Of a stretch of 64,000 nucleotides of DNA, positions 7,818 through 23,616 are shown one piece after another (within the stretch, counting starts at the first letter, position 1; each line of letters begins with the position of its first letter). This DNA is from Minisyncoccota bacterium (GTDB lineage Bacteria > Patescibacteriota > Minisyncoccia > Phycocordibacterales > Zambryskibacteraceae). The stretch spans positions 27,821 through 91,820 of the forward strand of contig JAGVCW010000021.1 in assembly GCA_020059045.1 (NCBI GenBank). The letters are read 5' to 3'. The notes under the pieces were generated by a model. The model worked only from the letters and a program-made list of their open reading frames with translations. It was not told where the DNA came from and searched no databases. Made by a program: the position numbers and the translations under genes.

Positions 7818-7888
7818 GTTGTAGATGTTCTAAATGTTATATATGTCTGACAATTACAACAACTAGAACAATTACAACAATTAGAACC
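7818..7888 (+). repeat. Intergenic hairpin element, family A, copy 1
   Basis: GTTGTAGATGTTCTAAATGTT...TGTCTGACAAT...ACAACAACTAGAACAATTACAACA. The arms around a TGTCWGACA core are reverse complements. Confidence 0.65.
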
Positions 7889-8659
7889 ATGGACACAACA
7901 GTTTATAACCAAAAAGGTGATTCAGTAGGGAAGATTAAGATTCCTGAATCAGTTTTCGGCGTGAAGTGGAATTCTGACATGGTTCACCAAGTTGTGACGT
8001 CCATGACATCTAGTGCGCGCAGAAACACGGCTCATACAAAGACTCGTGGGGAAGTACGGGGAGGAGGCAAGAAGCCTTGGAAGCAGAAGGGTACAGGACA
8101 GGCTCGTCACGGCTCGACTCGTTCACCAATATGGGTAGGAGGAGGTGTGGCACACGGTCCAAGAAACGATAAGAATTATGATCGCAAGGTGAATCGCAAA
8201 ATGAAGACCAAGGCTCTGTTTGCTATACTTTCTAGAAAGCTAAGTGATGGAGAAATAATTTTTATAGATGCGATTACAATGGGAGAAGCGAAGACAAAGA
8301 ATGCAATCAATATTATTTCAAATTTGAGAAAAATTGAGGGTTTCGATAAGATCTTTAATAAAAAGAAAAACAGTGCTCTCATTACTCTTGGCGAGAAAGA
8401 CGATTCTATAACAAGAAGTTTTAAAAACATAGGGAACGTGAGTGTCGATGAAATTCGTAATATAAACCCAGTTACACTTTTAAATTACAAAGCTCTCATC
8501 ATTTTAAATCCAGAAGCGTCTCTTCGATTACTTGAATCAAGGCTTAAGCAGAAAGCTACAGGTGATGCAGAAGGAGTGATAAAGAAAAAGTTTACAGCTA
8601 AAAAGAAAGGAGCTACAACAAAGAAAAAAGTAGTAGCTGCAAAGCCAAAGTCTTTATAA
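7889..8659 (+). CDS. rplD: Ribosomal protein L4 with a Lys-rich C-terminal tail
   Basis: RGGGKKPWKQKGTGQARHGSTRSPIWVGGGVAHGP motif. Confidence 0.9.
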   Translation: MDTTVYNQKGDSVGKIKIPESVFGVKWNSDMVHQVVTSMTSSARRNTAHTKTRGEVRGGGKKPWKQKGTGQARHGSTRSPIWVGGGVAHGPRNDKNYDRKVNRKMKTKALFAILSRKLSDGEIIFIDAITMGEAKTKNAINIISNLRKIEGFDKIFNKKKNSALITLGEKDDSITRSFKNIGNVSVDEIRNINPVTLLNYKALIILNPEASLRLLESRLKQKATGDAEGVIKKKFTAKKKGATTKKKVVAAKPKSL

Positions 8660-8669
8660 CAACTCATTT

Positions 8670-9050
8670 ATGGCCCTATTTTCAAAAAAACCCAAAGAAA
8701 AAGTTAAGAAAGACTCTCCAAAGAGTGTTTCACCAGAAGGACCTGTCGCATCAATCGAAACGATGGGTGGTACATCTTTTGCCCATATTCTCTTGCAGCC
8801 ACGTATTACGGAGAAAGCATCTCTCAAGGCAGAGAGCAATAATGTTTATGTCTTTGAAGTAAGCCCTCGTGCGTCAAAAAGTGACATAAGGCAGGCAGTG
8901 AAAGAAATTTATAAAGTGTCTCCAGAAAAAGTTTCTGTCGCACGAATCCCAAGTAAAAGTATTGTGGTTCGTGGTAAGCAAGGTGTGCGATCAGGTGGCA
9001 AGAAAGCCTATGTGTACCTGAAGAAGGGAGAGAAGATAGAGGTAATTTAG
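8670..9050 (+). CDS. rplW: Ribosomal protein L23
   Basis: ILLQPRITEKAS...YVFEVSPRASKSDIRQAVKEIYKV. Confidence 0.85.
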   Translation: MALFSKKPKEKVKKDSPKSVSPEGPVASIETMGGTSFAHILLQPRITEKASLKAESNNVYVFEVSPRASKSDIRQAVKEIYKVSPEKVSVARIPSKSIVVRGKQGVRSGGKKAYVYLKKGEKIEVI

Positions 9051-9225
9051 AAATTCAACGAACGAAGTGAGTATGAATTACTTAACCCCAACAAATTTTA
9101 TAGATACACAATTACCCAATTATTCTTGTGTATTTAATAACCACGAGTTATTATCCTTGGGCAATTTCTCAACGATAAAATTTGAGGGGGTCATGATTTT
9201 CTAATCGCTCTGCTCAAGAAAATCT
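9051..9225 (+). repeat. Intergenic palindromic element, family B, copy 2
   Basis: Starts AACGAACGAAGTGAGTATG. Internal inverted repeat CCCCAACAAATTTT / AAAATTTGAGGGGG. Ends CTAATCGCTCTGCTCAAGAAAATCT directly before the rplB ATG. Confidence 0.65.
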
Positions 9226-10065
9226 ATGAAACATTACAAACCAACAACCAAATCGCGAAGACAGATGACCGGTATAGACTACGGGAAAGTTTTGACCGCG
9301 AAAGATCCTTTGAAAAGTCTTACTCATGGAACTAAGCGTGATGTAGGCCGCAACCACCATGGTCGTGTTACAACACGTCACAAGGGAGGTGGGCACAAGC
9401 GTCTTTTCAGAGACATTGATTTTACATACAACAAATTTGATATTCCATTCAAAGTTTTAACAGTAGAATACGATCCAAACAGAACTGGTTTCATTGGCAT
9501 TGTAGTCTACAAGGATGGAGAAAAGAGATATGTCTTACTCCACAAAGGAGCGCGTGTTGGTGATACCTATATAGTTTCAGCTAAGGCTCCAGAGACAGTG
9601 GGCAACCGCCTGCCACTTGGCAAAATCACAGTGGGTACTTTCGTGTACAACGTAGAAGTTAAACCTCGTGGAGGTGCAAGGCTTGCAAGAAGCGCAGGTA
9701 ACTACATAGAAGTTGTTGCAAAGGATGCAGGCTACGTGGATCTTAAAATGCCATCTACAGAAGTAAGAAAAGTTTTAGAGACTTGCTGGGCGACAATCGG
9801 TGAAGTATCAAACGATGAGAACAGACTAGTAAATATCGGAAAAGCTGGAAGAAGTCGCTGGCTTGGTATAAGGCCTACTGTTCGTGGTTCTGCTATGAAC
9901 CCAGTAGATCATCCACACGGTGGAGGAGAGGGTCGTTCAGGACGCGGACGACGTCGAGCAGTGAGTGCATTTGGCAAACCAACAGGCAAGGGGCAGAAGT
10001 CTCGTACTCCAAAGAAATATTCAAACAAATTTATTGTTCGTCGCAGAAAAGTAGGAAAGAAGTAG
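9226..10065 (+). CDS. rplB: Ribosomal protein L2
   Basis: GRNHHGRVTTRHKGGGHKR...MNPVDHPHGGGEGR. Confidence 0.95.
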   Translation: MKHYKPTTKSRRQMTGIDYGKVLTAKDPLKSLTHGTKRDVGRNHHGRVTTRHKGGGHKRLFRDIDFTYNKFDIPFKVLTVEYDPNRTGFIGIVVYKDGEKRYVLLHKGARVGDTYIVSAKAPETVGNRLPLGKITVGTFVYNVEVKPRGGARLARSAGNYIEVVAKDAGYVDLKMPSTEVRKVLETCWATIGEVSNDENRLVNIGKAGRSRWLGIRPTVRGSAMNPVDHPHGGGEGRSGRGRRRAVSAFGKPTGKGQKSRTPKKYSNKFIVRRRKVGKK

Positions 10066-10095
10066 GATGATAAAGAGTAACCTACGACCGACAAC

Positions 10096-10114
10096 ACTAC
10101 TGAGTGGAAGCCGA
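10096..10114. repeat. GTGGAAGCCGAGCTTCCA(C) hairpin, copy 1 (second copy at 19098)
   Basis: 18-nt exact palindromic hairpin. It sits after the rplB stop and again after the rplE stop, in both cases at an operon interruption point. Confidence 0.55.
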
Positions 10115-10146
10115 GCTTCCAAAAATGTCTGTATTTCTTGCATAGC

Positions 10147-10175
10147 AGTGTAAATAAAAAAGCCCCGCATGTTTA
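10147..10175 (-). terminator. Rho-independent terminator for the minus-strand MYG1-like gene
   Basis: AGCCCCATAAACATGCGGGGCT followed by TTTTTT when read on the minus strand. Confidence 0.55.
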
Positions 10176-10186
10176 TGGGGCTACGG

Positions 10187-11155
10187 TTATACTGTATCAA
10201 GCACAGCTTGTATCTCTGCGGCCAGTGCATTGGCTTCAGCCGCGTCTCTACTCTCATTTTCCTCAAGTTGAGCAGAGTCAACTGGTACTTCTCCAGGCAG
10301 AAGTGCAAGTTCAGCAAGTCGCAAAGCACCCTCTCTACTCTCGGCTACGATTAGGTATCGGTTTTGGTGGCAAAACACGGCATCTCCTACCCCGGTGATT
10401 TCCTGAAGTTCAAGACCTCTCATACCTGCCCACTCTCTTGGTAACAAGCGAGGCGAAGTTGTATCAGTAGCTCTGTGCCAGCGTTTCACTGTCTGTACGA
10501 GCCAGCCGACCCTTTTGGGGTACACGACGAGGACTATTTCTGGGAAGTTTCTACTTACGTAGTGATCCCAACGGCATGAGTCATCAAGGAGTAAAACCTG
10601 TGGGCTTAAGTGCTTCTCTACAGCTCTCTTGACCACCTCTTCTCCTCGAATCTCTTCTTTTGCGCGGAAGATTGCACCACTTATGTTTGCTCGTGCAAAC
10701 GCAAGAGCAATATCCCAGTCACTTGGCTTAAATGTAGCTACTGCACTTGAAATGCTGTATGGCCGGATTTCACCAGCTTTGTATCTTACCAGAGTATACC
10801 TGTTGTCTGCCGCATCTATGGGTATAACCATGTGCCTCTCAATTTCTTCAGCTATCCGAGTGTCTTGAGCAATTCGCAGTCCGAAATGTTTCCATACAAG
10901 ACCGAAGGCAGCGTATGGAACACCATTTGCTCGTCTACCAGCACCTCCTTGCATATGGTGATCGAAGTCTAGAGTTTCTGGGTTGTACACTCCTCCTACA
11001 TCAATACGTACATTGCTTTCAGCTATTACTCTTGGATCGCGGCTACGCACCACAAGAGCTTCCATGTATTCCGGAAGCAATTGTAAGGCCGCGATCGCGT
11101 ACACCTCGTCTGCATGGATGGGTCCGTCGTGGGTCACAATTTGCACAGACAACAC
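10187..11155 (-). CDS. MYG1/UPF0160-family metal-dependent hydrolase-like protein
   Basis: N-terminal VTHDGPIHADEV matches the GTHxGxFHxDE signature. IDVGGVYNPETLDFDHHMQ matches the DVGG...FDHHQ signature. Length 322 aa. Intermediate GC, antisense to the ribosomal operon. Confidence 0.7.
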   Translation of the reverse strand: MLSVQIVTHDGPIHADEVYAIAALQLLPEYMEALVVRSRDPRVIAESNVRIDVGGVYNPETLDFDHHMQGGAGRRANGVPYAAFGLVWKHFGLRIAQDTRIAEEIERHMVIPIDAADNRYTLVRYKAGEIRPYSISSAVATFKPSDWDIALAFARANISGAIFRAKEEIRGEEVVKRAVEKHLSPQVLLLDDSCRWDHYVSRNFPEIVLVVYPKRVGWLVQTVKRWHRATDTTSPRLLPREWAGMRGLELQEITGVGDAVFCHQNRYLIVAESREGALRLAELALLPGEVPVDSAQLEENESRDAAEANALAAEIQAVLDTV

Positions 11156-11368
11156 CTCAAAATGGGAGTGAAATGCTTCTATAACAAAGGGCAGTACAAA
11201 ATACAGAGTACATATTTTTAGAAAATAGTCAAGATTTGCTAGATTTGCAATAAGTCTATGAGTTTATGGGTATTAGTTATTTTCTCACAATATAAGTGCT
11301 TATTTACTCCCAAAATATGGCCTAAGATAGCCCTTTTTGGGGATTTATGTAATTTAAATCAAAAAGTT

Positions 11369-11397
11369 CTTGACAAATAAATTGTATATGTTATACT
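11369..11397 (+). promoter_or_regulatory. Sigma70-like promoter, TTGACA-16-TATACT
   Basis: CTTGACAAATAAATTGTATATGTTATACTA upstream of the high-GC ORF. Confidence 0.45.
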
Positions 11398-11479
11398 ATA
11401 GGTAGTAGTAAGTAGTACATTTCAGTTGCAGTTCCCCGTTCAAGGTAGTCCACTCAGCACACCTTATGGAGGTATTACC

Positions 11480-12199
11480 ATGGCTAGCAAGAAGAAGCAG
11501 CAGGTAGCAACGAGCCCGGTTCCCAGCATGCAGGCCGCGGTTGCCACGATGGCGGAAGAGGCTCCCGCCGAGAGCAGGCAGTTCTCTTCGAGCCAGCCGA
11601 AGTGGTCCCCGACTCAGTTCATTGAGACCCTGGGGAAGATCAAGGAAGAACTCCCGGCCGCCGTGTCGAACTTCAAGATCGTGAAGAAGATCGTGGGTCT
11701 CGAGATGGACGGCAAGGATGAGATGGCCTTTCGGCAGATGATTCAGCTCGCCGGGGCCGTTGCTACCAAAGCATCCCAGAAGGCGGACGCGGAAGACCCA
11801 TCAAAGGTGTATCTGGATGCCAGGAAGGTCCAGGCTGCGCTCACCGCATGTGAGCGTGCCAATTCCAATCTGGCACGCACCTTCGACAGGTACATCGGGA
11901 ACTGGCGGAAGCGGGCTGACACCATGATGTCGAACGCAAGGCGCAAGGACCCGGACGTGATCGAGCGCGAGAGTGACACAATCGCGGACAACATGGAGGC
12001 ACTGGATGAGGCACTTGAAGGAAAGAAGCCTCGTCAAGAGGTCCTCGAGATCTACAACAGGACCTTCACCCATCTTCGCGAGCTCTCAAAGGAAGCAACG
12101 GCGCTTGCTACTGAAGCTTCGAGGAGAGAGCAGATCGAAACGATCGGCTCACTCGGGGACGACATCCTCGACTCTCTCGCGGAACTCGACAGCATCTAA
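11480..12199 (+). CDS. High-GC hypothetical alpha-helical protein
   Basis: Probable start MASKKKQQ at 11480. About 60% GC with strong GC3 bias, very different from the flanking r-protein genes. No recognised domain. Confidence 0.55.
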   Translation: MASKKKQQVATSPVPSMQAAVATMAEEAPAESRQFSSSQPKWSPTQFIETLGKIKEELPAAVSNFKIVKKIVGLEMDGKDEMAFRQMIQLAGAVATKASQKADAEDPSKVYLDARKVQAALTACERANSNLARTFDRYIGNWRKRADTMMSNARRKDPDVIERESDTIADNMEALDEALEGKKPRQEVLEIYNRTFTHLRELSKEATALATEASRREQIETIGSLGDDILDSLAELDSI

Positions 12200-12217
12200 G
12201 TGCTGCGAGCAGTAGTA

Positions 12218-12258
12218 CCCCACGAAAAACCCCCAAGGTATCGTGGGGTTTTTCTTTT
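12218..12258 (+). terminator. Rho-independent terminator
   Basis: CCCCACGA-loop-TCGTGGGG followed by TTTTTCTTTT. Confidence 0.6.
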
Positions 12259-12472
12259 ATTGCAATTGCGGAGAATACCATGACAGCTAGGCTGCATGGG
12301 ATGAATCCGCAAATACATACTATATGTCGGCGGAGCCGACTCCTCTTGCAACAAAGTTTGCCCTGATGCCTCGTCCTGCTACTCGCCGAGGCTTTGCGAG
12401 GGAATAGCTTACTGCGATTATAGGACGAGGCCAATTTTATTAAGATAATAATCTTTCCTGTATAATTTATAT

Positions 12473-13441
12473 ATGGAATACAAAACTATTATTTTGCCTA
12501 CTAGGCCTCAGGTGGATACTGTTATTTCTATATTCGTATTAAAGCACTTTGGTGAAAGTTTCTTCCCTGGTATTAAGACTGCTAGCTATGAGTTCATGTC
12601 CAACTTACCAGCTGGTGCGAGCGAAGAGAGCTTGGCAGAGGAAGGAAGGCTCCCAATAGATATTGGTGGTGGACGATTTGATCATCACAACAAAGAGGAG
12701 AAAACCACTGTTCTAAATCTTTTGACTAGCTTTCTTGCTCAAGGGAATAATCCTGCTTTAATAAAACTCAAGAAGTTTGTAGAAAGAGATGATTTTTATG
12801 GTAAAGGAATAATATCCTCTGACCCCCTTGATCGTGCTTTCGGTTTGCCCGGGCTTATTGCTTGTCTTAATAAAAAGTATTCAAGTAACCCAGCGAAAGT
12901 GCTGGATATAATTCTTCCAGTTGTTGATGCGTACTACGAAGAAGAAGAGAAGAGGGCAATAGGAATGCCTCTTGAACTTAAGGAGAAAATAGCAAATGGT
13001 AAAGCTAGAGTATTTAATACAGAGCAGAGAGGCAGAAAACTTAAATGCATTTTCATAGAAAGCGATAACATAAGTCTACCGGGTTTTCTTCGATCTAAGA
13101 TTGGAGGGGAGCACGATGTGATTGCAATAAGGCTATCGTCTGGACACACAAATATTCTTACGAGTCTCAAAAATACAGTTGATTTGCGTTCACTCGCAGT
13201 GCTTATTCGCTTACAAGAAGCCGAGGCGCGAGGTGTGAAGCTAGATGGAGTGCCGGAAGATTTAGCAGTACCGGGTAAAATCGATGAAGTACTTAATTGG
13301 TACTACGATACAGCTACTAACTCTTTACTAAATGGTGGTCCTAATCCAAGTGAGACCGACCCAACGGGAATAGCATCTTTCGAATTTGAAAAAATAATGG
13401 AAATAGGGCTCTCTGAGAAACTCTGGTCTCCATCACGATAA
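12473..13441 (+). CDS. Degenerate MYG1-like paralog, or DHH-motif protein
   Basis: 322 aa, the same length as the minus-strand MYG1-like protein. Retains IDIGGGRFDHHNKEE, comparable to IDVGGVY..FDHH. The N-terminal His/Asp signature is replaced by TRPQVDTVIS. Low GC. Confidence 0.5.
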   Translation: MEYKTIILPTRPQVDTVISIFVLKHFGESFFPGIKTASYEFMSNLPAGASEESLAEEGRLPIDIGGGRFDHHNKEEKTTVLNLLTSFLAQGNNPALIKLKKFVERDDFYGKGIISSDPLDRAFGLPGLIACLNKKYSSNPAKVLDIILPVVDAYYEEEEKRAIGMPLELKEKIANGKARVFNTEQRGRKLKCIFIESDNISLPGFLRSKIGGEHDVIAIRLSSGHTNILTSLKNTVDLRSLAVLIRLQEAEARGVKLDGVPEDLAVPGKIDEVLNWYYDTATNSLLNGGPNPSETDPTGIASFEFEKIMEIGLSEKLWSPSR

Positions 13442-13469
13442 GCCAAATACCCTTTATATTAGCCACGTA

Positions 13470-13520
13470 ATGGTCTATAAAAATCCTTGACTTTTATAGA
13501 CCATTATGCTATTATTATAC
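13470..13520 (+). promoter_or_regulatory. Promoter with an embedded perfect palindrome (operator-like)
   Basis: TGGTCTATAAAAATCCTTGACTTTTATAGACCA, then TTGACT-17-TATTAT. The palindrome arms flank the -35 box. Confidence 0.4.
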
Positions 13521-13564
13521 AAGAACAGCAGTTTCACACACCGACCCTTTCACAAGGAGTTTGC

Positions 13565-14155
13565 ATGGTAAAAAGCAAGGAAGTCGTCGACCCCGCATTT
13601 GTCGGAGAAGTGGAAGCGGCGCTCGTGTACCTCACGGTGCCCGGCAATCTGAAGTATCTTATACCCGGGTGGGTAAAAGAGGCGGACTTCTCGAATACTC
13701 CAAAGTCCGAGCGCCAGATGGCCCCACGATCCGATAAGTTGTTCCAAGTTGCACAAGCGAGGATGGATGGGGTGCTCGGGGATCTTGCCGGCGCTGGTTT
13801 CCTCCCCTCTGAAGTGTTTTATCTGAATCGGGATGGTGGCGCGCGGCGGGTTCGTATCACATGCAAGCGCTTTGGCGCACCGCTGACACTCGATCAGGTG
13901 CAGTCTCTCATTCCCCTCACTACCGAGCGGATATGGGATGTGATGGCTCATCGGACGGCTGCTACCAGGAACATTCCATGGGAGCACATTTCGATCAATG
14001 CCGGACGCCCCGATCATGCTCCAGAAGGGGGATTCGAAGCGGTTCGCGTGGTCGAAGGTCGAGTCTCGGTAGTTTCCCTTCTCAACACGGACGAGCTGCG
14101 GAAGGCGTCTGAGTCCATCATCGGCCTCCTCGAATCGCTGCAGATAACACGCTAA
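13565..14155 (+). CDS. High-GC hypothetical protein
   Basis: Start MVKSKEV. GC3-rich. The plus frame is more protein-like than the overlapping minus-frame ORF. Confidence 0.5.
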   Translation: MVKSKEVVDPAFVGEVEAALVYLTVPGNLKYLIPGWVKEADFSNTPKSERQMAPRSDKLFQVAQARMDGVLGDLAGAGFLPSEVFYLNRDGGARRVRITCKRFGAPLTLDQVQSLIPLTTERIWDVMAHRTAATRNIPWEHISINAGRPDHAPEGGFEAVRVVEGRVSVVSLLNTDELRKASESIIGLLESLQITR

Positions 14156-14184
14156 TCCTCCTTGCGATAACAGGGGGGTCAACG

Positions 14185-14215
14185 AGCCAGACAGAAATGT
14201 CTGGCTCTTTTCTAT
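14185..14215 (+). terminator. Rho-independent terminator
   Basis: GCCAGACA-gaaa-TGTCTGGC followed by TCTTTTCT. Confidence 0.6.
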
Positions 14216-14219
14216 TTAA

Positions 14220-14246
14220 TTGACAACAAGTGTCTATTTCTATAAT
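14220..14246 (+). promoter_or_regulatory. Sigma70-like promoter that restarts the operon before rpsS
   Basis: TTGACA at 14220-14225, a 15 nt spacer, and TATAAT at 14241-14246. Confidence 0.45.
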
Positions 14247-14349
14247 ATCTTGAGAAGCTCATCCGAGCTTTTTGTATTCTAATTTTAGTTTTAGTAGCTG
14301 GGCAGGAGTAACCCTTCGACGAGCTCAGGGTAAAAATCTAAAGATTTTT

Positions 14350-14709
14350 GTGACACGATCATCAAAAAAAGGCCCCTATGTATATGAGCGCCTTCTGAAG
14401 AAAATTGAAGGCAAAAAGCCCGAGCAAGCTGGGGTTATTAAGACATGGGCAAGGGACAGCCAGATCGCTCCCGAGATGGTTGGCTACACATTTGGAGTAC
14501 ATAATGGTAAGGATCATATTGAAGTTTTTGTAACTGAAGACATGGTGGGTCATAGACTCGGCGAATTCTCACCTACACGTAAGTTCGTTAAACATGGCGG
14601 TAAGATGCAGAAAGAACTTGAGCAGAAGAAGAAAGAATCAGAAATAGCATCTGCTCAAGCGGCCAAAGCCTCTGTAAGTGCAGGAGCAAATACAGTACCG
14701 GCGAAGTAG
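14350..14709 (+). CDS. rpsS: Ribosomal protein S19 (probable GTG start)
   Basis: [13 protein letters not shown]...[31 protein letters not shown]. The ORF track opens at 14272, but the S19 N-terminus aligns from the GTG at 14350. Confidence 0.85.
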
Positions 14710-14813
14710 CTTAAATGTTCTAAGTGTTGTATGTGTTATACATGTCATACAACTTCAACAATTCAAACAAATAAAACAACTAGAACATCTATAACAATTA
14801 AAACCGCGAATTT
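14710..14813 (+). repeat. Intergenic hairpin element, family A, copy 2
   Basis: AAATGTTCTAAGTGTTGTATG...CATACAACTTCAACAATT...AACAACTAGAACATCTATAACA. Confidence 0.6.
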
Positions 14814-15212
14814 ATGAGCGAAATAACTGCACAACTAAATGATTACAGACAGGCACCTCGTAAGGTGCGAGTTGTTGCAGGTCTTGTAAGAGGCAAGTCG
14901 GTCAAAGATGCTTTGGTGTCACTTGAATTTTTGCCTAAGCGTGCAGCAGATCCAATCTCAAAGCTTATAAGATCAGCGGTTGCAAACGCTCGATCTCAGA
15001 ACATTGAAACCGAGAATCTTATTCTAAAGGAACTACGTGTAGACGGAGGAAAAATATTATATCGAAGACGCAGCGCATCCCGCGGCCGAGCACCAGCTAT
15101 ACGAAAGAGGACAAGCCACATTCTCGTTGTCTTATCGGAAGACACCAAGAAGAAGTTGAAAAAGCAAAATGCAAAAAGTAAAAGTAATTCAGACGTAAGC
15201 GCTAAAAAATAA
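14814..15212 (+). CDS. rplV: Ribosomal protein L22
   Basis: RQAPRKVRVVAGLVRGKSVKDALVSLEFLPKRAA. Confidence 0.9.
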   Translation: MSEITAQLNDYRQAPRKVRVVAGLVRGKSVKDALVSLEFLPKRAADPISKLIRSAVANARSQNIETENLILKELRVDGGKILYRRRSASRGRAPAIRKRTSHILVVLSEDTKKKLKKQNAKSKSNSDVSAKK

Positions 15213-15248
15213 TTTTAAATTTTGATTTTTAAATTTTAATTTATATTC

Positions 15249-15929
15249 ATGAGTCATACAGTTCACCCATTTTCACACAGACTAGGTATCATAAGAGATT
15301 GGAGATCTCGATGGTTTGGTACAAAGAAGAATTACAAAGAATTTCTTCGCGGTGATCTTTTGATACGAGCATTTCTAGAAGGAAAGCTTCGTGGTATGTA
15401 CGTAAGTACTATTGAAATCGAGCGTAATGAAAAAGTTCTGCGCATTATAGTTGAGACTTCTCGACCCGGTATGATCATTGGTCGTAGTGGCGATGGAGCA
15501 GTCCGGCTCAAAGACCAGATCGTAGCCATGCTTCGCCGAGAGAAGGTGGGTCGTGCTAACGAAGAGGTTCGTCTCGATATTAAGGAGGTTAGATCTCCAG
15601 AATCAAATGCTCACATTGTTTCTCAGATGATAGGAGAGGGACTTGAGAAAAGACTTCCATACAGAAGAGTTGTGAAGCAAATGGTAGAAAAGGTTATGGC
15701 CAATCGTGATGTGAAAGGGGTAAAGGTAACTGTTGCAGGAAGACTCGGGGGCGCAAGTATTGCACGATCAGAGACAAGAAAGCTTGGTAGAATTCCTCTT
15801 CAGACATTTCGTGCTGATGTAGAGTTCGCACGGCACGAAGCTCGTCTCCCATATGGCAATCTGGGTATAAAAGTTTGGATTTACAAAGGTGACATTTTCT
15901 CCACCAAGGTTGGTGGAGAAAAGTCATAA
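15249..15929 (+). CDS. rpsC: Ribosomal protein S3
   Basis: HPFSHRLGIIRDWRSRWF...IIGRSGDG (KH domain). Confidence 0.9.
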   Translation: MSHTVHPFSHRLGIIRDWRSRWFGTKKNYKEFLRGDLLIRAFLEGKLRGMYVSTIEIERNEKVLRIIVETSRPGMIIGRSGDGAVRLKDQIVAMLRREKVGRANEEVRLDIKEVRSPESNAHIVSQMIGEGLEKRLPYRRVVKQMVEKVMANRDVKGVKVTVAGRLGGASIARSETRKLGRIPLQTFRADVEFARHEARLPYGNLGIKVWIYKGDIFSTKVGGEKS

Positions 15930-15947
15930 TTGTTCTACTTGTTATAG

Positions 15948-16325
15948 TTGTTCTATATGTCAGAGAGATTTCAAGGATATAGGTTTGAAAAATTGGAAGT
16001 TTGGCAGGTGGGAATGCGTATAGTAAGTAAGGTATATTCAATTACGAAAAGGTTTCCTAAAGACGAGACCTACGCCCTGTCTGACCAGTTAAAAAGAGCA
16101 GCCACTTCGATAGTTTTAAACTTGGCAGAAGGCTCAGGACAGCCAACAAAAAAGTTATTCTCTCTTTATATTGAACGTGCCAAGTCCTCAACACTTGAAT
16201 GTGTGGCTTGTACAAAAATTGCTGTTCAGGAAAAACTTGTAGAACCTGATGAGGTTAAATCTTTGGAAGAGCTACTTGCGGAAGAGTATTTTAAACTTAT
16301 TGCGCTAGCAAAATCTATGAGGTAA
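15948..16325 (+). CDS. Four-helix-bundle protein (23S rRNA intervening-sequence protein / Avd-like family)
   Basis: FPKDETYALSDQLKRAATSIVLNLAEGSG is the hallmark of this family. About 120 aa. Inserted between rpsC and rplP. Confidence 0.7.
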   Translation: MFYMSERFQGYRFEKLEVWQVGMRIVSKVYSITKRFPKDETYALSDQLKRAATSIVLNLAEGSGQPTKKLFSLYIERAKSSTLECVACTKIAVQEKLVEPDEVKSLEELLAEEYFKLIALAKSMR

Positions 16326-16396
16326 GATCTTCCTACTCTAGCTTGTAACCTATCTAACACCTATAACAACTAGAACATATATAACACTTACAACCA
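16326..16396 (+). repeat. Intergenic hairpin element, family A, copy 3
   Basis: ...ACCTATAACAACTAGAACATATATAACACTTACAACC before the rplP ATG. Confidence 0.55.
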
Positions 16397-16813
16397 ATGC
16401 TTTTCCCAAAAAAAGTAAAATATCGAAAATGGCACACTATGCGCAAGAACCCCAAGAAGGTGGGTTCTGCTACTCGTGGTATAGAAGTTAACTTCGGATC
16501 CTATGGTCTGAAAGCTCTTGAGTATGGCCGTATTAAGTCGAACCAGATTGAGTCAGCAAGAAAGGTTATGTCTCGCTCACTCGGAAAGACTGGCAAGATT
16601 TGGATCAGGATTTTCCCAGACATGCCATACACAGCGAAACCTGCCGAAGTTAAGCTCGGTAAAGGAAAAGGTGATCTCCAAGGTTACGTCGCTCCAGTTC
16701 ACGCAGGCAGAGTACTTTTTGAAGTAGATGGAGTAACGGAGGCTGTGGCAAGAGAGTCGCTCCGTAAAGCAGGAACAAAGCTACCAGTGAAAACAAGGAT
16801 AGTGGCTAGGTAA
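16397..16813 (+). CDS. rplP: Ribosomal protein L16
   Basis: KKVKYRKWHTMRKNPKKVGSATRG...RIFPDMPYTAKPAEVKLGKGKG. Confidence 0.9.
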   Translation: MLFPKKVKYRKWHTMRKNPKKVGSATRGIEVNFGSYGLKALEYGRIKSNQIESARKVMSRSLGKTGKIWIRIFPDMPYTAKPAEVKLGKGKGDLQGYVAPVHAGRVLFEVDGVTEAVARESLRKAGTKLPVKTRIVAR

Positions 16814-16903
16814 ATAGCGCTTGTTGTAAATGATGTATATGTTCTAAGTGTCTGACAAATACAACATCTACAACATTTAAAAACATTTACAACAAAATAT
16901 AGT
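16814..16903 (+). repeat. Intergenic hairpin element, family A, copy 4
   Basis: TTGTTGTAAATGATGTATATGTTCTAAGTGTCTGACAAATACAACATCTACAACATTTAAAAACA. Confidence 0.6.
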
Positions 16904-17095
16904 ATGTCTAAGGAACTCAAAGAAAAAAACGAAAAGGAATTAAGTAAAATGCTTGCGGATAATCAAGAGAATTTACGCTCTTTTCGATTTGGTATCGCAG
17001 GTTCGAAGAATCGCAATGTGAAAGAGGGACGGGCAATTCGCAAAGACATTGCAAGGATCCAAACTGAGATGAGTGCTCGCAAGAAGGCTAAATAG
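16904..17095 (+). CDS. rpmC: Ribosomal protein L29
   Basis: 63 aa. KELKEKNEKELSKMLADNQENLRSFRF. Confidence 0.85.
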   Translation: MSKELKEKNEKELSKMLADNQENLRSFRFGIAGSKNRNVKEGRAIRKDIARIQTEMSARKKAK

Positions 17096-17142
17096 ACAAG
17101 AGTCTGAAAATATGTAGTATAAACACACTAACTTATAGAGAG

Positions 17143-17382
17143 ATGAGTGCAATATCCACAAAAAATAAAGAATTTACAGGTACAGTAGTGTCAGACAAAA
17201 TGAAAGACACGATTGTTGTTAGTGTGGAGAGGTTTACGAAGCACCCTCGTTACGGCAAGTACATCCGAAGCCGTCGTAAGTTCAAGGTTCACGATGTAGG
17301 AAATACGAAAAAGATTGGAGAAAAAGTAGTATTCATTGCTTGTCGCCCAATTTCAAAAGATAAGAGATTCAGAGTTATTTAA
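17143..17382 (+). CDS. rpsQ: Ribosomal protein S17
   Basis: FTGTVVSDKMKDTIVVSVERFTKHPRYGKYIRSRRKFKVHD. Confidence 0.9.
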   Translation: MSAISTKNKEFTGTVVSDKMKDTIVVSVERFTKHPRYGKYIRSRRKFKVHDVGNTKKIGEKVVFIACRPISKDKRFRVI

Positions 17383-17558
17383 GGAGCTTGGCGACTATAA
17401 ATAACCTGACCCCCCATCATTTTTAACAATGAAACCTGAAACATTAAAAAAAGATATTGAAAAACATTTCTATTATAGTATCCGATGAAACATATTTTAA
17501 AAATGATGAGGGATGGTGATTTTCAAAAACTCACTATCGCTCGTTAAGAAAATCAACC
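17383..17558 (+). repeat. Intergenic palindromic element, family B, copy 3
   Basis: Internal inverted repeat CCCCCCATCATTTTTAA / TTAAAAATGATGAGGGATGG. Ends CTCACTATCGCTCGTTAAGAAAATCAACC directly before the rplN ATG. Confidence 0.65.
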
Positions 17559-17930
17559 ATGATCCAACCCCGCTCAATAGTAAAAATAGCAGACAACTCA
17601 GGCGCCAAAATCGGTAGAGTTTTCAAGGTGCTTGGTGGGTCTAAGAAGAGATACGCACGTATTGGTGATGTGGTGGTATTGTCGGTTCAGGTAGCACAAC
17701 CTAGAAAGTCAGTGAAAAAGAAAGACATTTTGTACGCGGTGGTAGCACGTCAGAGAACACCATTTCGCAGACAAGATGGTTCCTACATTCGTTTCGATGA
17801 GAATGCAGTGATAATTGTTGATAAAGCAAAGCACGAGCCTATCGCAGGACGTGTTTTCGGACCGATCCCAAGAGAGCTTGGCGAGATGGGATTCCAGCAG
17901 GTAATATCATTAGCACAAGAGGTAGTTTAG
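17559..17930 (+). CDS. rplN: Ribosomal protein L14
   Basis: MIQPRSIVKIADNSGAKIGRVFKVLGGSKKRYARIGDVVV. Confidence 0.95.
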   Translation: MIQPRSIVKIADNSGAKIGRVFKVLGGSKKRYARIGDVVVLSVQVAQPRKSVKKKDILYAVVARQRTPFRRQDGSYIRFDENAVIIVDKAKHEPIAGRVFGPIPRELGEMGFQQVISLAQEVV

Positions 17931-18149
17931 AAAATCAAGGAGTGAAACGACTATGATTTACTTAACCCCACCTAAATTTTGCATCGAAGACAGAAGCGCA
18001 GTGCGCGGCCGAGTAGGCCAAGCGGTCATGGGCGAAGCGCTGCGCCTCGAAAGGTTTGTGACTATTCGTCACTCGCACTTCTTGTGGTAATGTAAAAGCA
18101 AAATTTAGGCGGGGTCATGATTTTCCAATCGCTCCGCTCAAAAAAATCA
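17931..18149 (+). repeat. Intergenic palindromic element, family B, copy 4
   Basis: Near-perfect 29 bp inverted repeat (ATGATTTACTTAACCCCACCTAAATTTTGC / GCAAAATTTAGGCGGGGTCATGATTTTCC) around a GC-rich hairpin. Ends CAATCGCTCCGCTCAAAAAAATCA directly before the rplX ATG. Confidence 0.7.
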
Positions 18150-18455
18150 ATGAAAATAAAAAGGGATGACAACGTAATAGTGATAGGAGGCAAGGACAGA
18201 GGCAAAACTGGTAAAGTTTTGCGTGCTTTTCCTCGTGAATCGAAAGTTGTCATCTCGGGCGTAAACTTGAAAAAACTTCATAAGCGTCCCACAAAATCCG
18301 GGCAGAAGGGACAAGTCGTTGAGCAAGCTGCACCCATACATGTATCAAATGTTATGATTGTGGATCCAAAATCTGGGAAGAGAACAAGAGTTCTACGCAA
18401 GATGGAAGGAGACAAGAAAGTCAGAGTAGCAAAAAGTAGCGGCACCACGCTGTAA
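18150..18455 (+). CDS. rplX: Ribosomal protein L24
   Basis: MKIKRDDNVIVIGGKDRGKTGKV (KOW motif). Start set at the conserved leader/ATG junction. The ORF track begins at 18117. Confidence 0.85.
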   Translation: MKIKRDDNVIVIGGKDRGKTGKVLRAFPRESKVVISGVNLKKLHKRPTKSGQKGQVVEQAAPIHVSNVMIVDPKSGKRTRVLRKMEGDKKVRVAKSSGTTL

Positions 18456-18532
18456 AGTTATAAATGTTGTAATTGTTGTAGTGTCAGACATTTATAACAT
18501 CTACAACATTTAGAACAATTTCAACATACAAA
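18456..18532 (+). repeat. Intergenic hairpin element, family A, copy 5
   Basis: ATAAATGTTGTAATTGTTGTAGTGTCAGACATTTATAACATCTACAACATTTAGAACA. Confidence 0.6.
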
Positions 18533-19081
18533 ATGCAAAGCATAAAAGAAAAAACTCAAAAAACGTTTTCATCACTTAAGGCCACTCGTGGTTATAAAAA
18601 TCCCATGCAATCTCCACGTATTGTCAAAGTTGTTGTGAGTGTAGGAACGGGCTCATTTAAGGATGCGAAGAAAAAGGAACTTGCCCTGGATCGTCTTACG
18701 AAGATTACCGGCCAGCGCCCATCAGTACGCGGTGCAAAGCAGTCAATTGCCGCATTTAAAGTCCGACAGGGAGACCCGGTAGGACTTGCAGTCACACTTC
18801 GTGGCAAGAGAATGTACGATTTTCTAGATAAGTTAATCCATGTGGCCCTACCTCGTACCAAGGACTTCAGAGGAGTATCTTCTAAAGCTATTGATAAGAT
18901 GGGCAATTACACTCTAGGTATTAAGGAGCACACTATTTTCCCAGAGACAGCAGACGAGGAACTTAAAGACGTTTTTGGGCTAGCAATAACAATAGTTACG
19001 ACCGCAAGAACGAAGGAGGAGACCAAAGAATTTCTAGATTATCTAAGTTTCCCTTTCAAAAAAACAGAAGAGAAGAAGTAA
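18533..19081 (+). CDS. rplE: Ribosomal protein L5
   Basis: NPMQSPRIVKVVVSVGTG...AFKVRQGDPVGLAVTLRGKRMYDFLDKLI. Confidence 0.9.
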   Translation: MQSIKEKTQKTFSSLKATRGYKNPMQSPRIVKVVVSVGTGSFKDAKKKELALDRLTKITGQRPSVRGAKQSIAAFKVRQGDPVGLAVTLRGKRMYDFLDKLIHVALPRTKDFRGVSSKAIDKMGNYTLGIKEHTIFPETADEELKDVFGLAITIVTTARTKEETKEFLDYLSFPFKKTEEKK

Positions 19082-19094
19082 ATCCGTGGAAGCG

Positions 19095-19116
19095 AAGCGT
19101 GGAAGCCGAGCTTCCA
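19095..19116. repeat. GTGGAAGCCGAGCTTCCAC hairpin, copy 2
   Basis: CGTGGAAGCCGAGCTTCCACGG directly after the rplE stop. Same 18-mer as at 10096. Confidence 0.55.
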
Positions 19117-19184
19117 CGGAACATACTGTGTTCAGAATCTTTAAATGCTTGTAAACTTCATATAAATTTGTTTCTATAATAGAT

Positions 19185-19391
19185 ATGACAGAAGAATCAC
19201 TAAACTTAAACGAGACAAAGGAGAAGAGCGCGTTTTCCATGGGCGATCATTCAGATTTTATTGCAAGAGAGCTTGACCAAGTGAATAGGGAGTTACTCGA
19301 TGTAAGTTTAGACATACCAGATGGGGAGGTATCAGGTTTGGAAGAAGTGTATGATGCGATGATAAGGGATCTAAAAATCGAAAATAAATAA
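19185..19391 (+). CDS. Small acidic hypothetical protein
   Basis: 68 aa ORF with TATAAT located 10 nt upstream. Lies inside the rplE-rpsN insertion. Confidence 0.35.
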   Translation: MTEESLNLNETKEKSAFSMGDHSDFIARELDQVNRELLDVSLDIPDGEVSGLEEVYDAMIRDLKIENK

Positions 19392-19410
19392 TTCAAGTTC
19401 TCACTTTCGT

Positions 19411-19752
19411 ATGAACAAATTTTTATCTTTAGTAACGCGTATTCTGGGTGAGCTAGAATTTTCGCAAGAAAACAAAGAAAAAGTTGCATATGATCTCAAT
19501 CGCCTAATTATGACAAAGGTTGTCATAGCACTTCTTGATGAGGCCCCAGAGAATGTTCAAACTGAAGTTGAAAAACTTTTAAGTGCTGGTGAAACACTTG
19601 AAGTTGCAAATATCCTCAAGTCTACATTTACGACTGAAAGATTCGAAGAAGTAAGCCTTCATATTACTCGAGATGTGGTTCACAAATACTTAAGCGAATT
19701 GTTTGCAAAAACTCACAAGGAAAACAAAGAGAAACTTGTCGCTTCACTCTAA
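19411..19752 (+). CDS. Hypothetical protein
   Basis: 113 aa helical ORF in the same insertion. Confidence 0.4.
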   Translation: MNKFLSLVTRILGELEFSQENKEKVAYDLNRLIMTKVVIALLDEAPENVQTEVEKLLSAGETLEVANILKSTFTTERFEEVSLHITRDVVHKYLSELFAKTHKENKEKLVASL

Positions 19753-19759
19753 TATTTGT

Positions 19760-20340
19760 GCTGGGCTCTAATAGCACAGTACTTTTGTATAAAAACAAAC
19801 CCGCTCCTTGGTGAGGGCGGGCGATAGTGGGAAGAAAACTTCCAATGGTTTGGAAACTGCATGAAACCGGGTACTTCCTCCCTTTGTCTAGTCAATGGCG
19901 ATTGGGCGCCTATGACATCCTCTTGGCTGTAAACCTCGTAACTCACCATGAGTTACGGCAGGCTAACGCCAACTAAGCTGAGGACTTCGACTGGGCTGTC
20001 TCTGCACGTGGTCCCGAATGAGACGCCTAGTGAGCGAATGACCCGAACGCAGACTACCCGGTTTCACACTTTGTAATGAACTTATATCTTGCACTCTCTT
20101 TCGAGAGATGATTTCGTACCCTGGGGCGGCGAGCGGGCCGAAGCGCCGTCACGACCCCAGGGACTTCCTCGATATTTAACCTCTGATGCCGAGTACCGCA
20201 TCGGAGGCGATCCCCGTTAGGACGTAAGCGAATGCACCGGTTTAGGGCACATCACTGTATCCGAGCCCGCATGGGGGAGCTTGTGAGCTTATGTATATTA
20301 TAGCATGTACACGTTATTTGTCAAGGAGTTTCTCATTATC
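19760..20340 (+). ncRNA. Large GC-rich structured non-coding RNA. The core (about 19800-20070) is a possible reduced RNase P RNA.
   Basis: No ORF, and GC is well above the surroundings. A 10-11 bp long-range pairing joins GAAACCGGGUA (about 19862) to UACCCGGUUUC (about 20053), like the RNase P P4 helix. The segments GGCAGGCUAACGCC and GAAUGACCCGAACGCAGACUACCCGGUUU resemble the bacterial RNase P regions GGCAGG..UAACGCC and GAAUGAC..ACAGAAxCCGGCUUA. Additional strong hairpins are present, including CCCTGGGGCGGCG...CGCCGTCACGACCCCAGGG. Confidence 0.4.
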
Positions 20341-20592
20341 TTTTCTGTGACACATGAAATATGGCTAAAACTAAGGCTTATTTGAATATCACTTTAAAGT
20401 AGAGGGAAATTTGTTGGCAAGTTCTTGAAATTATCCGCTTAACCCTTATTTTATTGACTTTATACGGCTCAATTGCTAAGCTGTTGCAAAGCTTTTGGAA
20501 GCTTTTTTCTTTACTTAATCGCTTCATTCGTCAATATTCTTCCTTTTGAGGGCTTTCGCTCATGCGAGGTCGCTAGAGGATAAACAATATTT

Positions 20593-20778
20593 GTGGCCAA
20601 GAAATCAGTTATAGCAAGATCAGTTAAAAAGCCTAAATTCTCGACTCGCATCGTGAGGCGTTGTTTCCGTTGTGGTCGAAAGCGTGGCTATATGCAAGAT
20701 TTTGATCTATGTAGAATATGTTTTCGCGAATTTGCAAATGAAGGCAAAATCCCGGGCGTTAAGAAATCAAGTTGGTAA
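20593..20778 (+). CDS. rpsN: Ribosomal protein S14, type Z zinc-ribbon (GTG start)
   Basis: 61 aa. [25 protein letters not shown] with two C-x2-C pairs. Confidence 0.9.
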
Positions 20779-20881
20779 TAAAAGATTGTTCTAGATGTTG
20801 TAATTGATATACATGTTATAAATGTCTGACAAATACAACAACTAAAACATTTTGAAACAAATATAACATCTCAAACATTAC
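20779..20881 (+). repeat. Intergenic hairpin element, family A, copy 6
   Basis: TGTTCTAGATGTTGTAATTGATATACATGTTATAAATGTCTGACAAATACAACAACTAAAACA. Confidence 0.6.
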
Positions 20882-21265: not shown

Positions 21266-21353
21266 TGGCTTTGTCTAAATTTTACGAACGAAGTGAAATA
21301 AAATTTAGTAACAAAACATTAACTCACTATCGTTCGTTAAGAAAATCAACCAC
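21266..21353 (+). repeat. Intergenic palindromic element, family B, copy 5
   Basis: 88 bp, about 97% identical to copy 6. TTACGAACGAAGTGAAATAAAATTTAGT...CTCACTATCGTTCGTTAAGAAAATCAACCAC-ATG. Confidence 0.75.
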
Positions 21354-23613: not shown

Positions 23614-23616
23614 GGG

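What the first reader, a model, noticed from the sequence alone, without database searches (positions are those of the whole stretch)
7818..20881. Family A intergenic hairpin elements (ACAAC / TAGAACA arms around a TGTCWGACA core) fill at least six other r-protein spacers
The spacers L3-L4, S19-L22, 4HB-L16, L16-L29, L24-L5 and S14-S8 contain 70-100 bp elements. They are built from GTTGTA/ACAAC and TGTTCTA/TAGAACA words arranged as imperfect inverted repeats around TGTCTGACA or TGTCAGACA. A related motif recurs in the secY leader (23540). Two distinct repeat families alternate through one operon. This suggests a genome-wide REP/MITE-like system or a dedicated set of intercistronic regulatory hairpins.
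Basis: seen in the sequence. Interest (0 to 1): 0.6.

Follow-up and report, generated by a model that had tools for sequence, protein, structure and literature searches.

The report
IVS-like hairpins between ribosomal-protein genes
Six gaps between ribosomal-protein genes of a tiny uncultured bacterium hold copies of one palindromic element, and one copy still carries the small 'intervening-sequence protein' gene previously known from insertions in ribosomal RNA, so this long-unexplained kind of element also lives between protein genes and leaves gene-less copies.

Summary
Family A is a 9-nt periodic palindrome: (TGTTNTANN)x3-4, TGTCWGACA, then (NNTANAACA)x4-7. A two-word pattern gives 35 hits against 0.47 expected, and 33 of them lie in the six elements. 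Two corrections are needed. The '4HB-L16' copy is only the right arm of an element whose left arm lies between S3 and the 4HB gene. The secY-leader motif is not a member. The 4HB gene is a PF05635 '23S rRNA intervening-sequence protein' sitting in the loop of a family A element. Deleting it in silico gives a sequence that aligns column by column with the five gene-less copies. Homologous 4HB genes in 8 other Parcubacteria genomes (four genomic contexts), and in 6 of 7 cyanobacterial plasmids examined, are bracketed by complementary arrays of tandem short words. The Coxiella 23S rRNA IVS has the same layout. Family A is absent from the rest of the 64-kb window and from the same operon in 80 related species, whose closest members have 1-16 nt spacers. 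Best reading: gene-less derivatives of an IVS-type cassette living in operon spacers, not a demonstrated genome-wide REP/MITE system. RNase III processing is inferred, not shown. I rate it a new variant of a known kind, interest about 0.68.

The parts
7818..7888 (+). Gene-less family A copy between L3 stop and L4 start. Hairpin 7818-7878, followed by a 10-nt unpaired AC-rich tail.
   Evidence: z -3.7; 63 bits
14710..14813 (+). Gene-less family A copy between S19 and L22. Degenerate core TGTCATACA, long right arm of 6-7 words, weak fold.
   Evidence: z -0.9; 63 bits
15930..15956 (+). Left arm (TTGTTCTAC TTGTTATAG TTGTTCTAT) of the gene-bearing copy. It fills the S3|4HB spacer and runs into the ATG of the 4HB gene.
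   Evidence: (I1: 15927-15975 pairs with 16342-16390)
15957..16325 (+). 122-aa four-helix-bundle gene (PF05635 23S_rRNA_IVP, TIGR02436) in the loop of the element. Its first 8 nt, ATGTCAGA, are the family A core.
   Evidence: 5.5e-27; PDB 2GSC
16326..16396 (+). Right arm of the gene-bearing copy (words at 16353-16395), ending 1 nt before the L16 ATG.
16814..16903 (+). Gene-less family A copy between L16 and L29.
   Evidence: z -2.5; 58 bits
18456..18532 (+). Gene-less family A copy between L24 and L5.
   Evidence: z -4.2; 60 bits
20779..20881 (+). Gene-less family A copy between S14 and S8.
   Evidence: z -1.7; 53 bits

Best explanation
Family A elements are gene-less copies of an IVS-type palindromic cassette. 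[quoted passage not shown] It is bracketed by an array of tandem short words on one side and the reverse-complement array on the other. The cassette sits exactly between the stop codon of one gene and the start codon of the next, in the same orientation, and so rides on the host operon's transcript. In this genome it lies between S3 and L16. Five internally deleted copies (arms joined at ATGTCWGACA, the remnant of the gene's start) occupy neighbouring spacers of the same operon. Shown: the family, its periodic palindromic build, the relation between the gene-bearing and gene-less copies, the conserved link between this gene family and such arms across phyla, and the absence of the elements from close relatives. 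Inferred: in the transcript the arms pair into an imperfect 20-30 bp stem that RNase III cuts, as in rRNA IVSs. Cutting would release the 4HB message or, for gene-less copies, separate neighbouring cistrons. The unpaired AC-rich 3' words would be left as a Shine-Dalgarno-less leader for the next gene. How copies are made is unknown.
For: Periodic palindrome far above chance. The longest inverted repeat in 64 kb flanks the 4HB gene, and the closing stem is kept in the MFE and centroid folds. In-silico deletion of 15964-16356 gives a 74-nt sequence that scores 49 bits on the profile of gene-less copies (true copies score 53-63) and aligns column by column. The 4HB gene is PF05635/TIGR02436. Eight homologues (61-75% identity) in other Parcubacteria are all flanked by the same words, in four contexts: LemA|HtpX, Ser-hydrolase|HSP20, DsbA-like|TrxB and S3|L16. 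The profile built only from gene-less copies hits both flanks of most of these genes and nothing else in those loci (13 of 16 flanks by the regex). A regex for three or more tandem words hits only family A and these flanks in 1.5 Mb. CGTT(left)/AACG(right) covaries with TGTT/AACA between species (rho 0.84, p 0.005). The three CG-type proteins do not cluster. 15 of 16 cassettes, including 6 of 7 cyanobacterial ones with 7-nt words, form 14-43 long-range flank pairs in the MFE; control genes have a mean of 4.7. The Coxiella IVS has an S23p ORF, a 28-bp terminal stem, tandem heptamers before the ATG with strain-variable copy number, and mapped RNase III cuts (PMC4990558). Word copy number also varies here between samples (L094 against L095). 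The orthologous spacers are 1-16 nt in seven close relatives including L001-L003. Start codons lie outside the stems.
Against: There is no direct evidence of RNase III cleavage or of transcription. No rnc gene is in the window. The sense RNA does not fold better than the antisense, for gene-less copies or for cassettes (p 0.19), so the pairing constraint could act on DNA. Two gene-less copies fold weakly (z -0.9 and -1.7). The cassette occupies the same LemA|HtpX site in 6 of 9 lineages, which looks like long vertical residence rather than active mobility. No target-site duplication can be seen. There is no known mobility enzyme. Only 64 kb of the genome could be inspected.
Confidence: 0.6

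Rival explanations
1. The word arrays are binding sites for the 4HB protein itself. On this view the toroidal pentamer binds 3-5 tandem words in RNA or DNA, as TRAP binds GAG repeats. The cassette would be an autoregulated gene, and the gene-less copies would place five ribosomal-protein cistrons under its control, making them true dedicated regulatory hairpins.
For: The gene and the arrays are strictly coupled in 15 of 16 cassettes across two phyla. The arrays abut the 4HB ATG and the next gene's ATG. There are 3-7 words per arm, and the protein family forms homopentameric toroids (PMC4990558 citing Lin 2006; PDB 2GSC has 5 chains). The protein is conserved and basic (pI about 8.9). The only operon among 81 that holds the gene is the only one with gene-less copies.
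Against: No binding data exist for any member. Both complementary arms are kept, which a single-strand binder would not need. Words differ greatly between lineages while the protein core stays conserved. In Coxiella the protein appears not to be made and the ORF is decaying (PMC4990558).
Confidence: 0.2
2. A classical genome-wide REP/BIME or transposase-driven MITE family that happens to be seen in this operon.
For: Palindromic, short, multi-copy and intergenic; absent from close relatives. Other Parcubacteria carry other palindromic families in the same spacers, some shared between distant species.
Against: There are 0 copies in the other 48 junctions of the window and 0 in 80 related operons. 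One chance hit only in the metagenome collection. No RAYT, transposase or integrase in the window. No GTAG-type REP head and no target duplication. The gene-bearing parent encodes a 4HB protein, not a transposase.
Confidence: 0.1
3. Ribosomal-protein autoregulatory leaders or intrinsic terminators/attenuators native to the operon.
For: They lie between ribosomal-protein cistrons and form hairpins.
Against: No Rfam family matches, even at E<=1. No T-run follows the stems, and neither the terminator nor the promoter consensus matches. The elements are absent from the same spacers of the closest relatives. The same element flanks a non-ribosomal gene in unrelated operons.
Confidence: 0.04
4. Meaningless AT-rich low-complexity sequence produced by slippage, with no palindromic design.
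For: The tandem words do vary in number, and the region is AT-rich.
Against: Enrichment is about 75-fold over dinucleotide shuffles with a strict strand split between arms. There are 42 invariant columns. The two arms covary between species.
Confidence: 0.01

Closest known systems
23S rRNA intervening sequences that carry an S23p/IVP ORF (Coxiella burnetii, Leptospira; also reported in CPR 16S/23S insertions)
   Same: Same protein family in the loop (PF05635). Terminal inverted repeats close a long stem around the ORF. Tandem short direct repeats sit just upstream of the ATG, with variable copy number. No own promoter is apparent; the element rides on a highly expressed host transcript (PMC4990558, PMC11270868).
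   Different: It lies between protein-coding cistrons (S3|L16, LemA|HtpX and others), not in helix 9/25/45 of 23S rRNA. The words have a 9-nt period. RNase III excision is untested here. Gene-less copies sit in neighbouring mRNA spacers.
ORF-less 23S rRNA IVSs (Salmonella, Yersinia, Campylobacter; about 100 nt, cut by RNase III)
   Same: About 70-100 nt imperfect hairpins without an ORF, sporadic among relatives, and related by architecture to ORF-bearing IVSs (own knowledge; PMC4990558 introduction).
   Different: Located in mRNA spacers. Here they are demonstrably derived from, or homologous to, a gene-bearing copy in the same operon.
MITEs processed at the RNA level, such as Neisseria Correia/NEMIS elements, and ERIC/IRU elements
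   Same: Small palindromic intergenic inserts that are co-transcribed with flanking genes. For Correia elements, the hairpins are cut by RNase III (own knowledge).
   Different: Those have defined terminal inverted repeats, TA target duplications, hundreds of dispersed copies and a presumed transposase origin. Family A has word-array arms, no visible duplication, clustered copies and a 4HB-gene parent.
REP/BIME elements with RAYT transposases
   Same: Extragenic palindromes inside operons (own knowledge).
   Different: No REP head motif, no RAYT gene in the window, and no dispersed copies.
Cyanobacterial STRR tandem heptanucleotide repeats
   Same: Arrays of tandem 7-nt words in intergenic DNA. 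In the plasmids examined, such arrays in inverted pairs flank 4HB genes or occur without a gene. The name STRR is from my own knowledge.
   Different: STRRs have not, to my knowledge, been tied to 4HB genes. Period is 7 rather than 9 nt, and the words differ.
Avd, the accessory protein of diversity-generating retroelements
   Same: Homologous four-helix-bundle pentamer (PMC10053308). The NCBIfam Avd model gives a weak hit (21 bits).
   Different: The score is far below the Avd cut-off of 80. No reverse transcriptase or template repeat is nearby in any of the nine Parcubacteria loci.

Membership tests
IVS (intervening sequence) elements with S23p/IVP ORF | ORF of the PF05635 / S23p four-helix-bundle family inside the element | tested here: met
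   PF05635 5.5e-27; TIGR02436 79 bits; PDB 2GSC 3.4e-12
IVS (intervening sequence) elements with S23p/IVP ORF | Complementary termini forming a stem that encloses the ORF | tested here: met
   49-nt arms 76% complementary, the longest inverted repeat in the window. Closing stem present in the MFE and centroid. 15 of 16 cassettes have 14-43 flank pairs; control mean is 4.7.
IVS (intervening sequence) elements with S23p/IVP ORF | Tandem short direct repeats immediately upstream of the ORF start, variable in number (described for Coxiella) | tested here: met
   Three 9-nt words lie before the ATG. L094 and L095 carry 4 and 5 copies. Coxiella GACAGAT x2-3 (PMC4990558).
IVS (intervening sequence) elements with S23p/IVP ORF | Inserted in a 23S (or 16S) rRNA helix | tested here: not met
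   It lies between the S3 and L16 genes. Homologues lie between LemA and HtpX, and in other mRNA spacers. For this reason it is filed as a variant, not a member.
IVS (intervening sequence) elements with S23p/IVP ORF | Excised from the transcript by RNase III | not testable with these tools
   Needs RNA mapping or an enzyme assay. No rnc gene is in the window.
MITE | Short, non-coding, with terminal inverted repeats | tested here: met
   71-104 nt with complementary arms
MITE | Internal-deletion derivative of an autonomous element that encodes a transposase | tested here: inconclusive
   The deletion relation to a gene-bearing copy is shown. However, that gene is a 4HB protein with no known transposase activity.
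MITE | Target-site duplication | tested here: inconclusive
   No duplication is visible at six sites, but the empty sites of relatives are too diverged to align.
MITE | Many dispersed copies in the genome | tested here: not met
   All copies lie within 13 kb of one operon, and none elsewhere in 64 kb. The rest of the genome could not be retrieved.
REP/BIME with RAYT | 20-40 nt palindrome with a conserved head, hundreds of extragenic copies, and a cognate RAYT gene | tested here: not met
   Different build; no copies outside the operon; no Y1 transposase among the window proteins. This applies to the window only.
Ribosomal-protein leader / known RNA family (Rfam) | Match to a curated covariance model | tested here: not met
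   No match at gathering score or at E<=1
Intrinsic terminator | GC-rich stem followed by a T-run | tested here: not met
   No family A element is in the terminator scan; the stems are followed by AC-rich words.
DGR accessory protein Avd | Score above the Avd equivalog cut-off, with an adjacent reverse transcriptase and template repeat | tested here: not met
   21 bits against a cut-off of 80. No RT in the window or in the homologues' loci.

The most novel reading that the evidence does not exclude
PF05635 four-helix-bundle proteins (IVS proteins, relatives of Avd) may be sequence-specific partners of the tandem-word arrays that always flank their genes. They could act as a toroidal RNA or DNA binder that controls folding or cleavage of the stem, or as the factor that copies the cassette. 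On this reading rRNA IVSs, the 4HB genes found inside cas operons, cyanobacterial heptamer repeats and these Parcubacteria spacer hairpins would all be one class of element. In this genome, five ribosomal-protein cistrons would have come under the control of that protein.
Probability: 0.2. Interest if true: 0.85.

Novelty: new variant of a known kind. Interest (0 to 1): 0.68.

Why it matters
IVSs in 23S rRNA and their conserved ORF have had no explained function or mode of spread since about 1990. Three things are new here. First, the same gene with the same architecture (tandem words, ORF, complementary words) sits in ordinary operon spacers in at least two phyla. Second, it leaves gene-less hairpin copies. 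Third, the arms co-evolve. Together these turn 'IVS' from an rRNA curiosity into a general cassette, and they give defined sequences (9-nt words and a 122-aa protein) for binding, cleavage and mobility assays. The finding also explains why 4HB genes appear inside cas and other operons without a functional link. It further shows that the normally compact ribosomal-protein operons of reduced CPR genomes can be inflated by such elements. That matters for gene calling, operon models and marker-gene phylogenomics in these organisms.

Tried and rejected
1. A metagenome-wide scan for TGTCWGACAWWTAYAACAWCTA gave one hit, inside a eukaryotic papain-like gene, which is chance.
2. A viral-contig scan for three tandem words gave at least 120 hits, none near an IVP gene, so it is noise from AT-rich genomes.
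3. I tried to extend the view along the 103,936-bp source contig. Exact-protein look-ups for four window proteins, including the 4HB protein itself, found nothing on record, and the cluster look-up gave no accession.
4. The Rfam search found nothing for family A.
5. The promoter and terminator scans found nothing specific to family A.
6. A test for stronger folding of the sense strand was negative, so RNA-level selection is not demonstrated.
7. The target-duplication check was uninformative.
8. I searched for 4HB genes in the 80 related operons and found none.
9. LexA/Cheo-box, CtsR-box, boxA and T7-epsilon resemblances were considered from memory and dropped, because spacing or order does not fit and nothing could be tested.
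10. A coding reading of the 9-nt period was rejected: stop codons occur inside the words.
11. Ralph and McClelland 1993 could not be read.
12. Six literature searches found no description of the cassette outside rRNA.


Full report
WHERE WE ARE. The window comes from a Parcubacteria (Paceibacteria, Zambryskibacteria-like) genome. The 80 best S3 matches in the species-level genome collection are all from this group, at 61-84% identity. The finding lies in the S10-spc ribosomal-protein cluster on the plus strand. Pfam confirms the gene order S10, L3, L4, L23, L2, S19, L22, S3, L16, L29, S17, L14, L24, L5, S14, S8, L6, L18, S5, L15. Foreign genes are inserted between L2 and S19 and between L5 and S14.

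Five spacers contain a complete element: L3|L4, S19|L22, L16|L29, L24|L5 and S14|S8. When aligned, the copies show a strict 9-nt period. There are three or four left words TGTTNTANN, then the 9-nt palindrome TGTCWGACA, then four to seven right words NNTANAACA. A two-word pattern allowing one mismatch occurs 35 times in the window against 0.47 expected from dinucleotide shuffles. Of these, 33 lie in the elements, on the minus strand in left arms and the plus strand in right arms. As RNA, three copies fold clearly better than shuffles (z -3.7, -2.5, -4.2) and two only weakly (-0.9, -1.7). In every copy the stem begins 0-17 nt after the stop codon. The next start codon lies in an unpaired AC-rich tail.

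TWO CORRECTIONS. The motif in the secY leader is not a member. A profile of the family does not find it, and that spacer folds into a different, GC-richer structure. The '4HB-L16' copy is only a right arm.

THE KEY POINT: THE 4HB GENE SITS INSIDE AN ELEMENT.
- The matching left arm fills the 27-nt S3|4HB spacer. The pair 15927-15975 / 16342-16390 is the longest inverted repeat in the whole 64 kb.
- Folding 15927-16399 keeps a 16-bp closing stem in both the minimum-energy and centroid structures.
- The enclosed 122-aa gene is a PF05635 '23S rRNA intervening-sequence protein', also matched by TIGR02436 and closest to PDB 2GSC.
- Its ATG is the ATG of the family A core (TATATGTCAGA).
- Removing 15964-16356 in silico leaves 74 nt that score 49 bits on the profile of gene-less copies. 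Real copies score 53-63 bits. The product aligns column by column with them, with 42 invariant columns.
The five short copies are therefore gene-less versions of a gene-bearing palindromic cassette in the same operon.

THE GENE AND THE ARMS TRAVEL TOGETHER.
- The protein has many homologues in Patescibacteria.
- I could read the surroundings of eight distinct ones (61-75% identity). In every case the gene is preceded by GT-rich words and followed by the complementary AC-rich words. The arms run from the upstream stop codon to the downstream start codon.
- Six lie between lemA and an M48/HtpX protease gene. One lies between a serine-hydrolase gene and hsp20. One lies between a DsbA-like gene and a thioredoxin-reductase gene.
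- The profile built only from the window's gene-less copies hits both flanks of most of these genes and nothing else in those loci; by the regex, 13 of 16 flanks are detected.
- A loose regex for three or more tandem words hits only family A and these flanks in 1.5 Mb of sequence held. That includes 80 related S10-spc operons.
- Species that write the left words CGTT write the right words AACG. Species that write TGTT write AACA (rho 0.84, p 0.005). The three CG-type proteins are not each other's closest relatives, so the two arms co-evolve.
- Word number differs between two samples that carry the identical protein: 4 against 5 copies of TTGAACGAT.

THE ARCHITECTURE REACHES BEYOND THIS PHYLUM.
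- Distant homologues (28-44% identity) on cyanobacterial plasmids show the same layout with 7-nt words. Examples are GGGAACA x3 upstream and TGTTCCC x6 downstream in Nostoc (40-nt arms, 88% complementary). Others are GGGAAAA/TTTTCCC in Geminocystis and AGGGTGT/ACACCCT in Calothrix. In Picosynechococcus, GGAGATA/TATCTCC flank a copy wedged between cas10 and cmr3.
- Over all 16 cassettes, cognate flanks pair at a mean of -37.9 kcal/mol against -23.1 for non-cognate pairs.
- In 15 of 16, the minimum-energy fold of the whole unit contains 14-43 pairs between the two flanks. For 24 control genes of similar size the mean is 4.7. The one high control is L16, which sits between two elements.
- The exception among the cassettes is an Oscillatoria copy with purine-rich arrays on both sides.

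WHAT IS KNOWN.
- The Coxiella 23S rRNA IVS is a 428-nt element with an S23p ORF and a 28-bp terminal stem. It has two or three tandem heptamers (GACAGAT) just before the ATG, varying between strains. RNase III cuts were mapped in the stem. The function of the protein is unknown, and an old proposal holds that it serves mobility (PMC4990558).
- IVP ORFs have been recorded in insertions of CPR 16S and 23S rRNA genes (PMC11270868).
- IVP genes were noticed inside cas operons, for example between cmr2 and cmr3, and read as a functional association (PMC3936711).
- PF05635 resembles the DGR accessory protein Avd (PMC10053308). Here the Avd model scores far below its cut-off, and no reverse transcriptase is nearby.
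- I found no paper that describes the word-array cassette outside rRNA or its gene-less derivatives. The library is incomplete, so this is absence of evidence only.

DISTRIBUTION.
- Within the window, family A occupies 7 of 29 junctions of the S10-spc cluster and 0 of 48 others (p about 7e-4, my calculation). The IF3-L35-L20 operon has none.
- In the seven close relatives examined, including the three closest species (S3 77-84% identical), the same six junctions are 1-16 nt long. The elements are therefore gains in this lineage.
- None of the 80 related operons has family A or an IVP gene. The only operon with the gene is the only one with the gene-less copies.
- Inflated spacers as such are common in the group. 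In the relatives, 152 of 1145 junctions are 60-260 nt long, with median fold z -3.5. Twenty of 80 loci have three or more such spacers. Several other word-palindrome families, including family B of this window, are shared between distant species.

MECHANISM. The following is shown: a palindromic, periodic family; the relation of gene-less to gene-bearing copies; conserved coupling of PF05635 genes with complementary word arrays; and insertion exactly between stop and start in co-oriented operons. The rest is inferred by analogy with rRNA IVSs. On that analogy, the arms pair in the operon transcript and RNase III cuts the stem, which insulates the insert from its hosts. The unpaired AC-rich 3' words would remain as the leader of the next cistron, in a genome whose ribosomal-protein genes show no Shine-Dalgarno motif (by eye).

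Several results count against a purely RNA-level reading. Sense and antisense strands fold equally well. Nothing here shows cleavage. The frequent LemA|HtpX position suggests long vertical residence. How copies arise is unknown: the window has no transposase, RAYT, integrase or RT and no visible target duplication.

The main rival is that the 4HB pentamer binds the words, which would make the gene-less copies real regulatory sites. I rate it at about 0.2. A classical genome-wide REP/MITE system gets about 0.1, pending the full genome.

VERDICT. The evidence ties it to IVS-type cassettes and extends that known kind to mRNA spacers, with gene-less derivatives. I file it as a new variant of a known kind, interest 0.68.

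Noticed in passing
window 7027-7208, 9051-9225, 17383-17558, 17931-18116, 21266-21353, 21888-21975: Family B is a second spacer element. An outer stem (ACGAACGAAGTGA ... TCACTATCGTTCGT) is followed by TAAGAAAATCAACC just before the ATG, and it encloses variable inner hairpins (CCCC.../...GGGG). Related copies occur in 8 loci of other Parcubacteria, including L004, L006 and L031.
   Followed up: partly
window 19790-20324, minus strand: An unannotated, highly structured RNA candidate of about 500 nt (fold z -5.6). It has a perfect TTGACA-16-TATAAT promoter at 20324-20297 and a GC stem plus U-run at its end. No Rfam family matches. Some strings recall RNase P RNA, from memory only, but the RNase P models do not hit.
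   Followed up: partly
window 6515-6639: The tuf|S10 spacer is a strong hairpin (z -5.6) built from yet another word pair (TAATAAGTT / AACTTATTA). It has the same design principle as family A but different words.
   Followed up: no
window 16366-16404 with 16813-16851: The AC-rich right arm before L16 can pair with the GT-rich left arm of the next element after L16 (39 nt, 77% complementary; 36 long-range pairs in the MFE). Adjacent elements could therefore loop out a whole ribosomal-protein cistron.
   Followed up: partly
window 10066-14271 and 19082-20592: Non-ribosomal inserts interrupt the operon. Between L2 and S19 there is a MYG1-like gene on the minus strand plus three unknown ORFs with higher G+C (0.46-0.48). 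Between L5 and S14 there are two small ORFs plus the RNA candidate. The L2|S19 and L5|S14 gaps are also highly variable in relatives, from about 45 to 8500 nt and about 20 to 5700 nt respectively.
   Followed up: no
L052 (all 14 junctions), L029, L031, L033, L037, L050, L006: Other Parcubacteria have nearly every S10-spc spacer filled with 60-200 nt word-palindromes of other families (CCTAATT.., AAAGTTnnT/ACTTTA.., ACGAATA.., AAATGTAAA.., ACTTCCAAATTATGACC..). Some spacers hold only the start-proximal arm.
   Followed up: partly
L105 (Nostoc edaphicum plasmid pNe_5) 14413-14564, 26638-26850, 46111-46278: Inverted pairs of tandem heptamer arrays, with no gene between them, lie in intergenic spacers of a plasmid that also has a 4HB gene flanked by such arrays (23581-24050). 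This is a possible link between cyanobacterial heptamer repeats and 4HB cassettes.
   Followed up: partly
L100 (Picosynechococcus plasmid) 986-1342: A 4HB cassette with GGAGATA/TATCTCC arms is wedged between cas10/cmr2 and cmr3. The reported association of IVP genes with cas loci may therefore reflect insertion of a cassette rather than a CRISPR function (PMC3936711).
   Followed up: no
L093/L094 versus L095, downstream of the 4HB gene: The same 4HB protein in different samples has 4 or 5 tandem copies of TTGAACGAT in the right arm, so the arrays change by unit gain and loss.
   Followed up: no
window 48802-48876 and 61097-61186, minus strand: ARAGORN reports tRNA-Ile with anticodon TAT and tRNA-Ser with anticodon ACT. 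Both are unusual anticodons worth a check.
   Followed up: no
window 41747-42019, minus strand: A free-standing 90-aa GIY-YIG nuclease gene sits between the tmRNA gene (41241-41678) and smpB.
   Followed up: no
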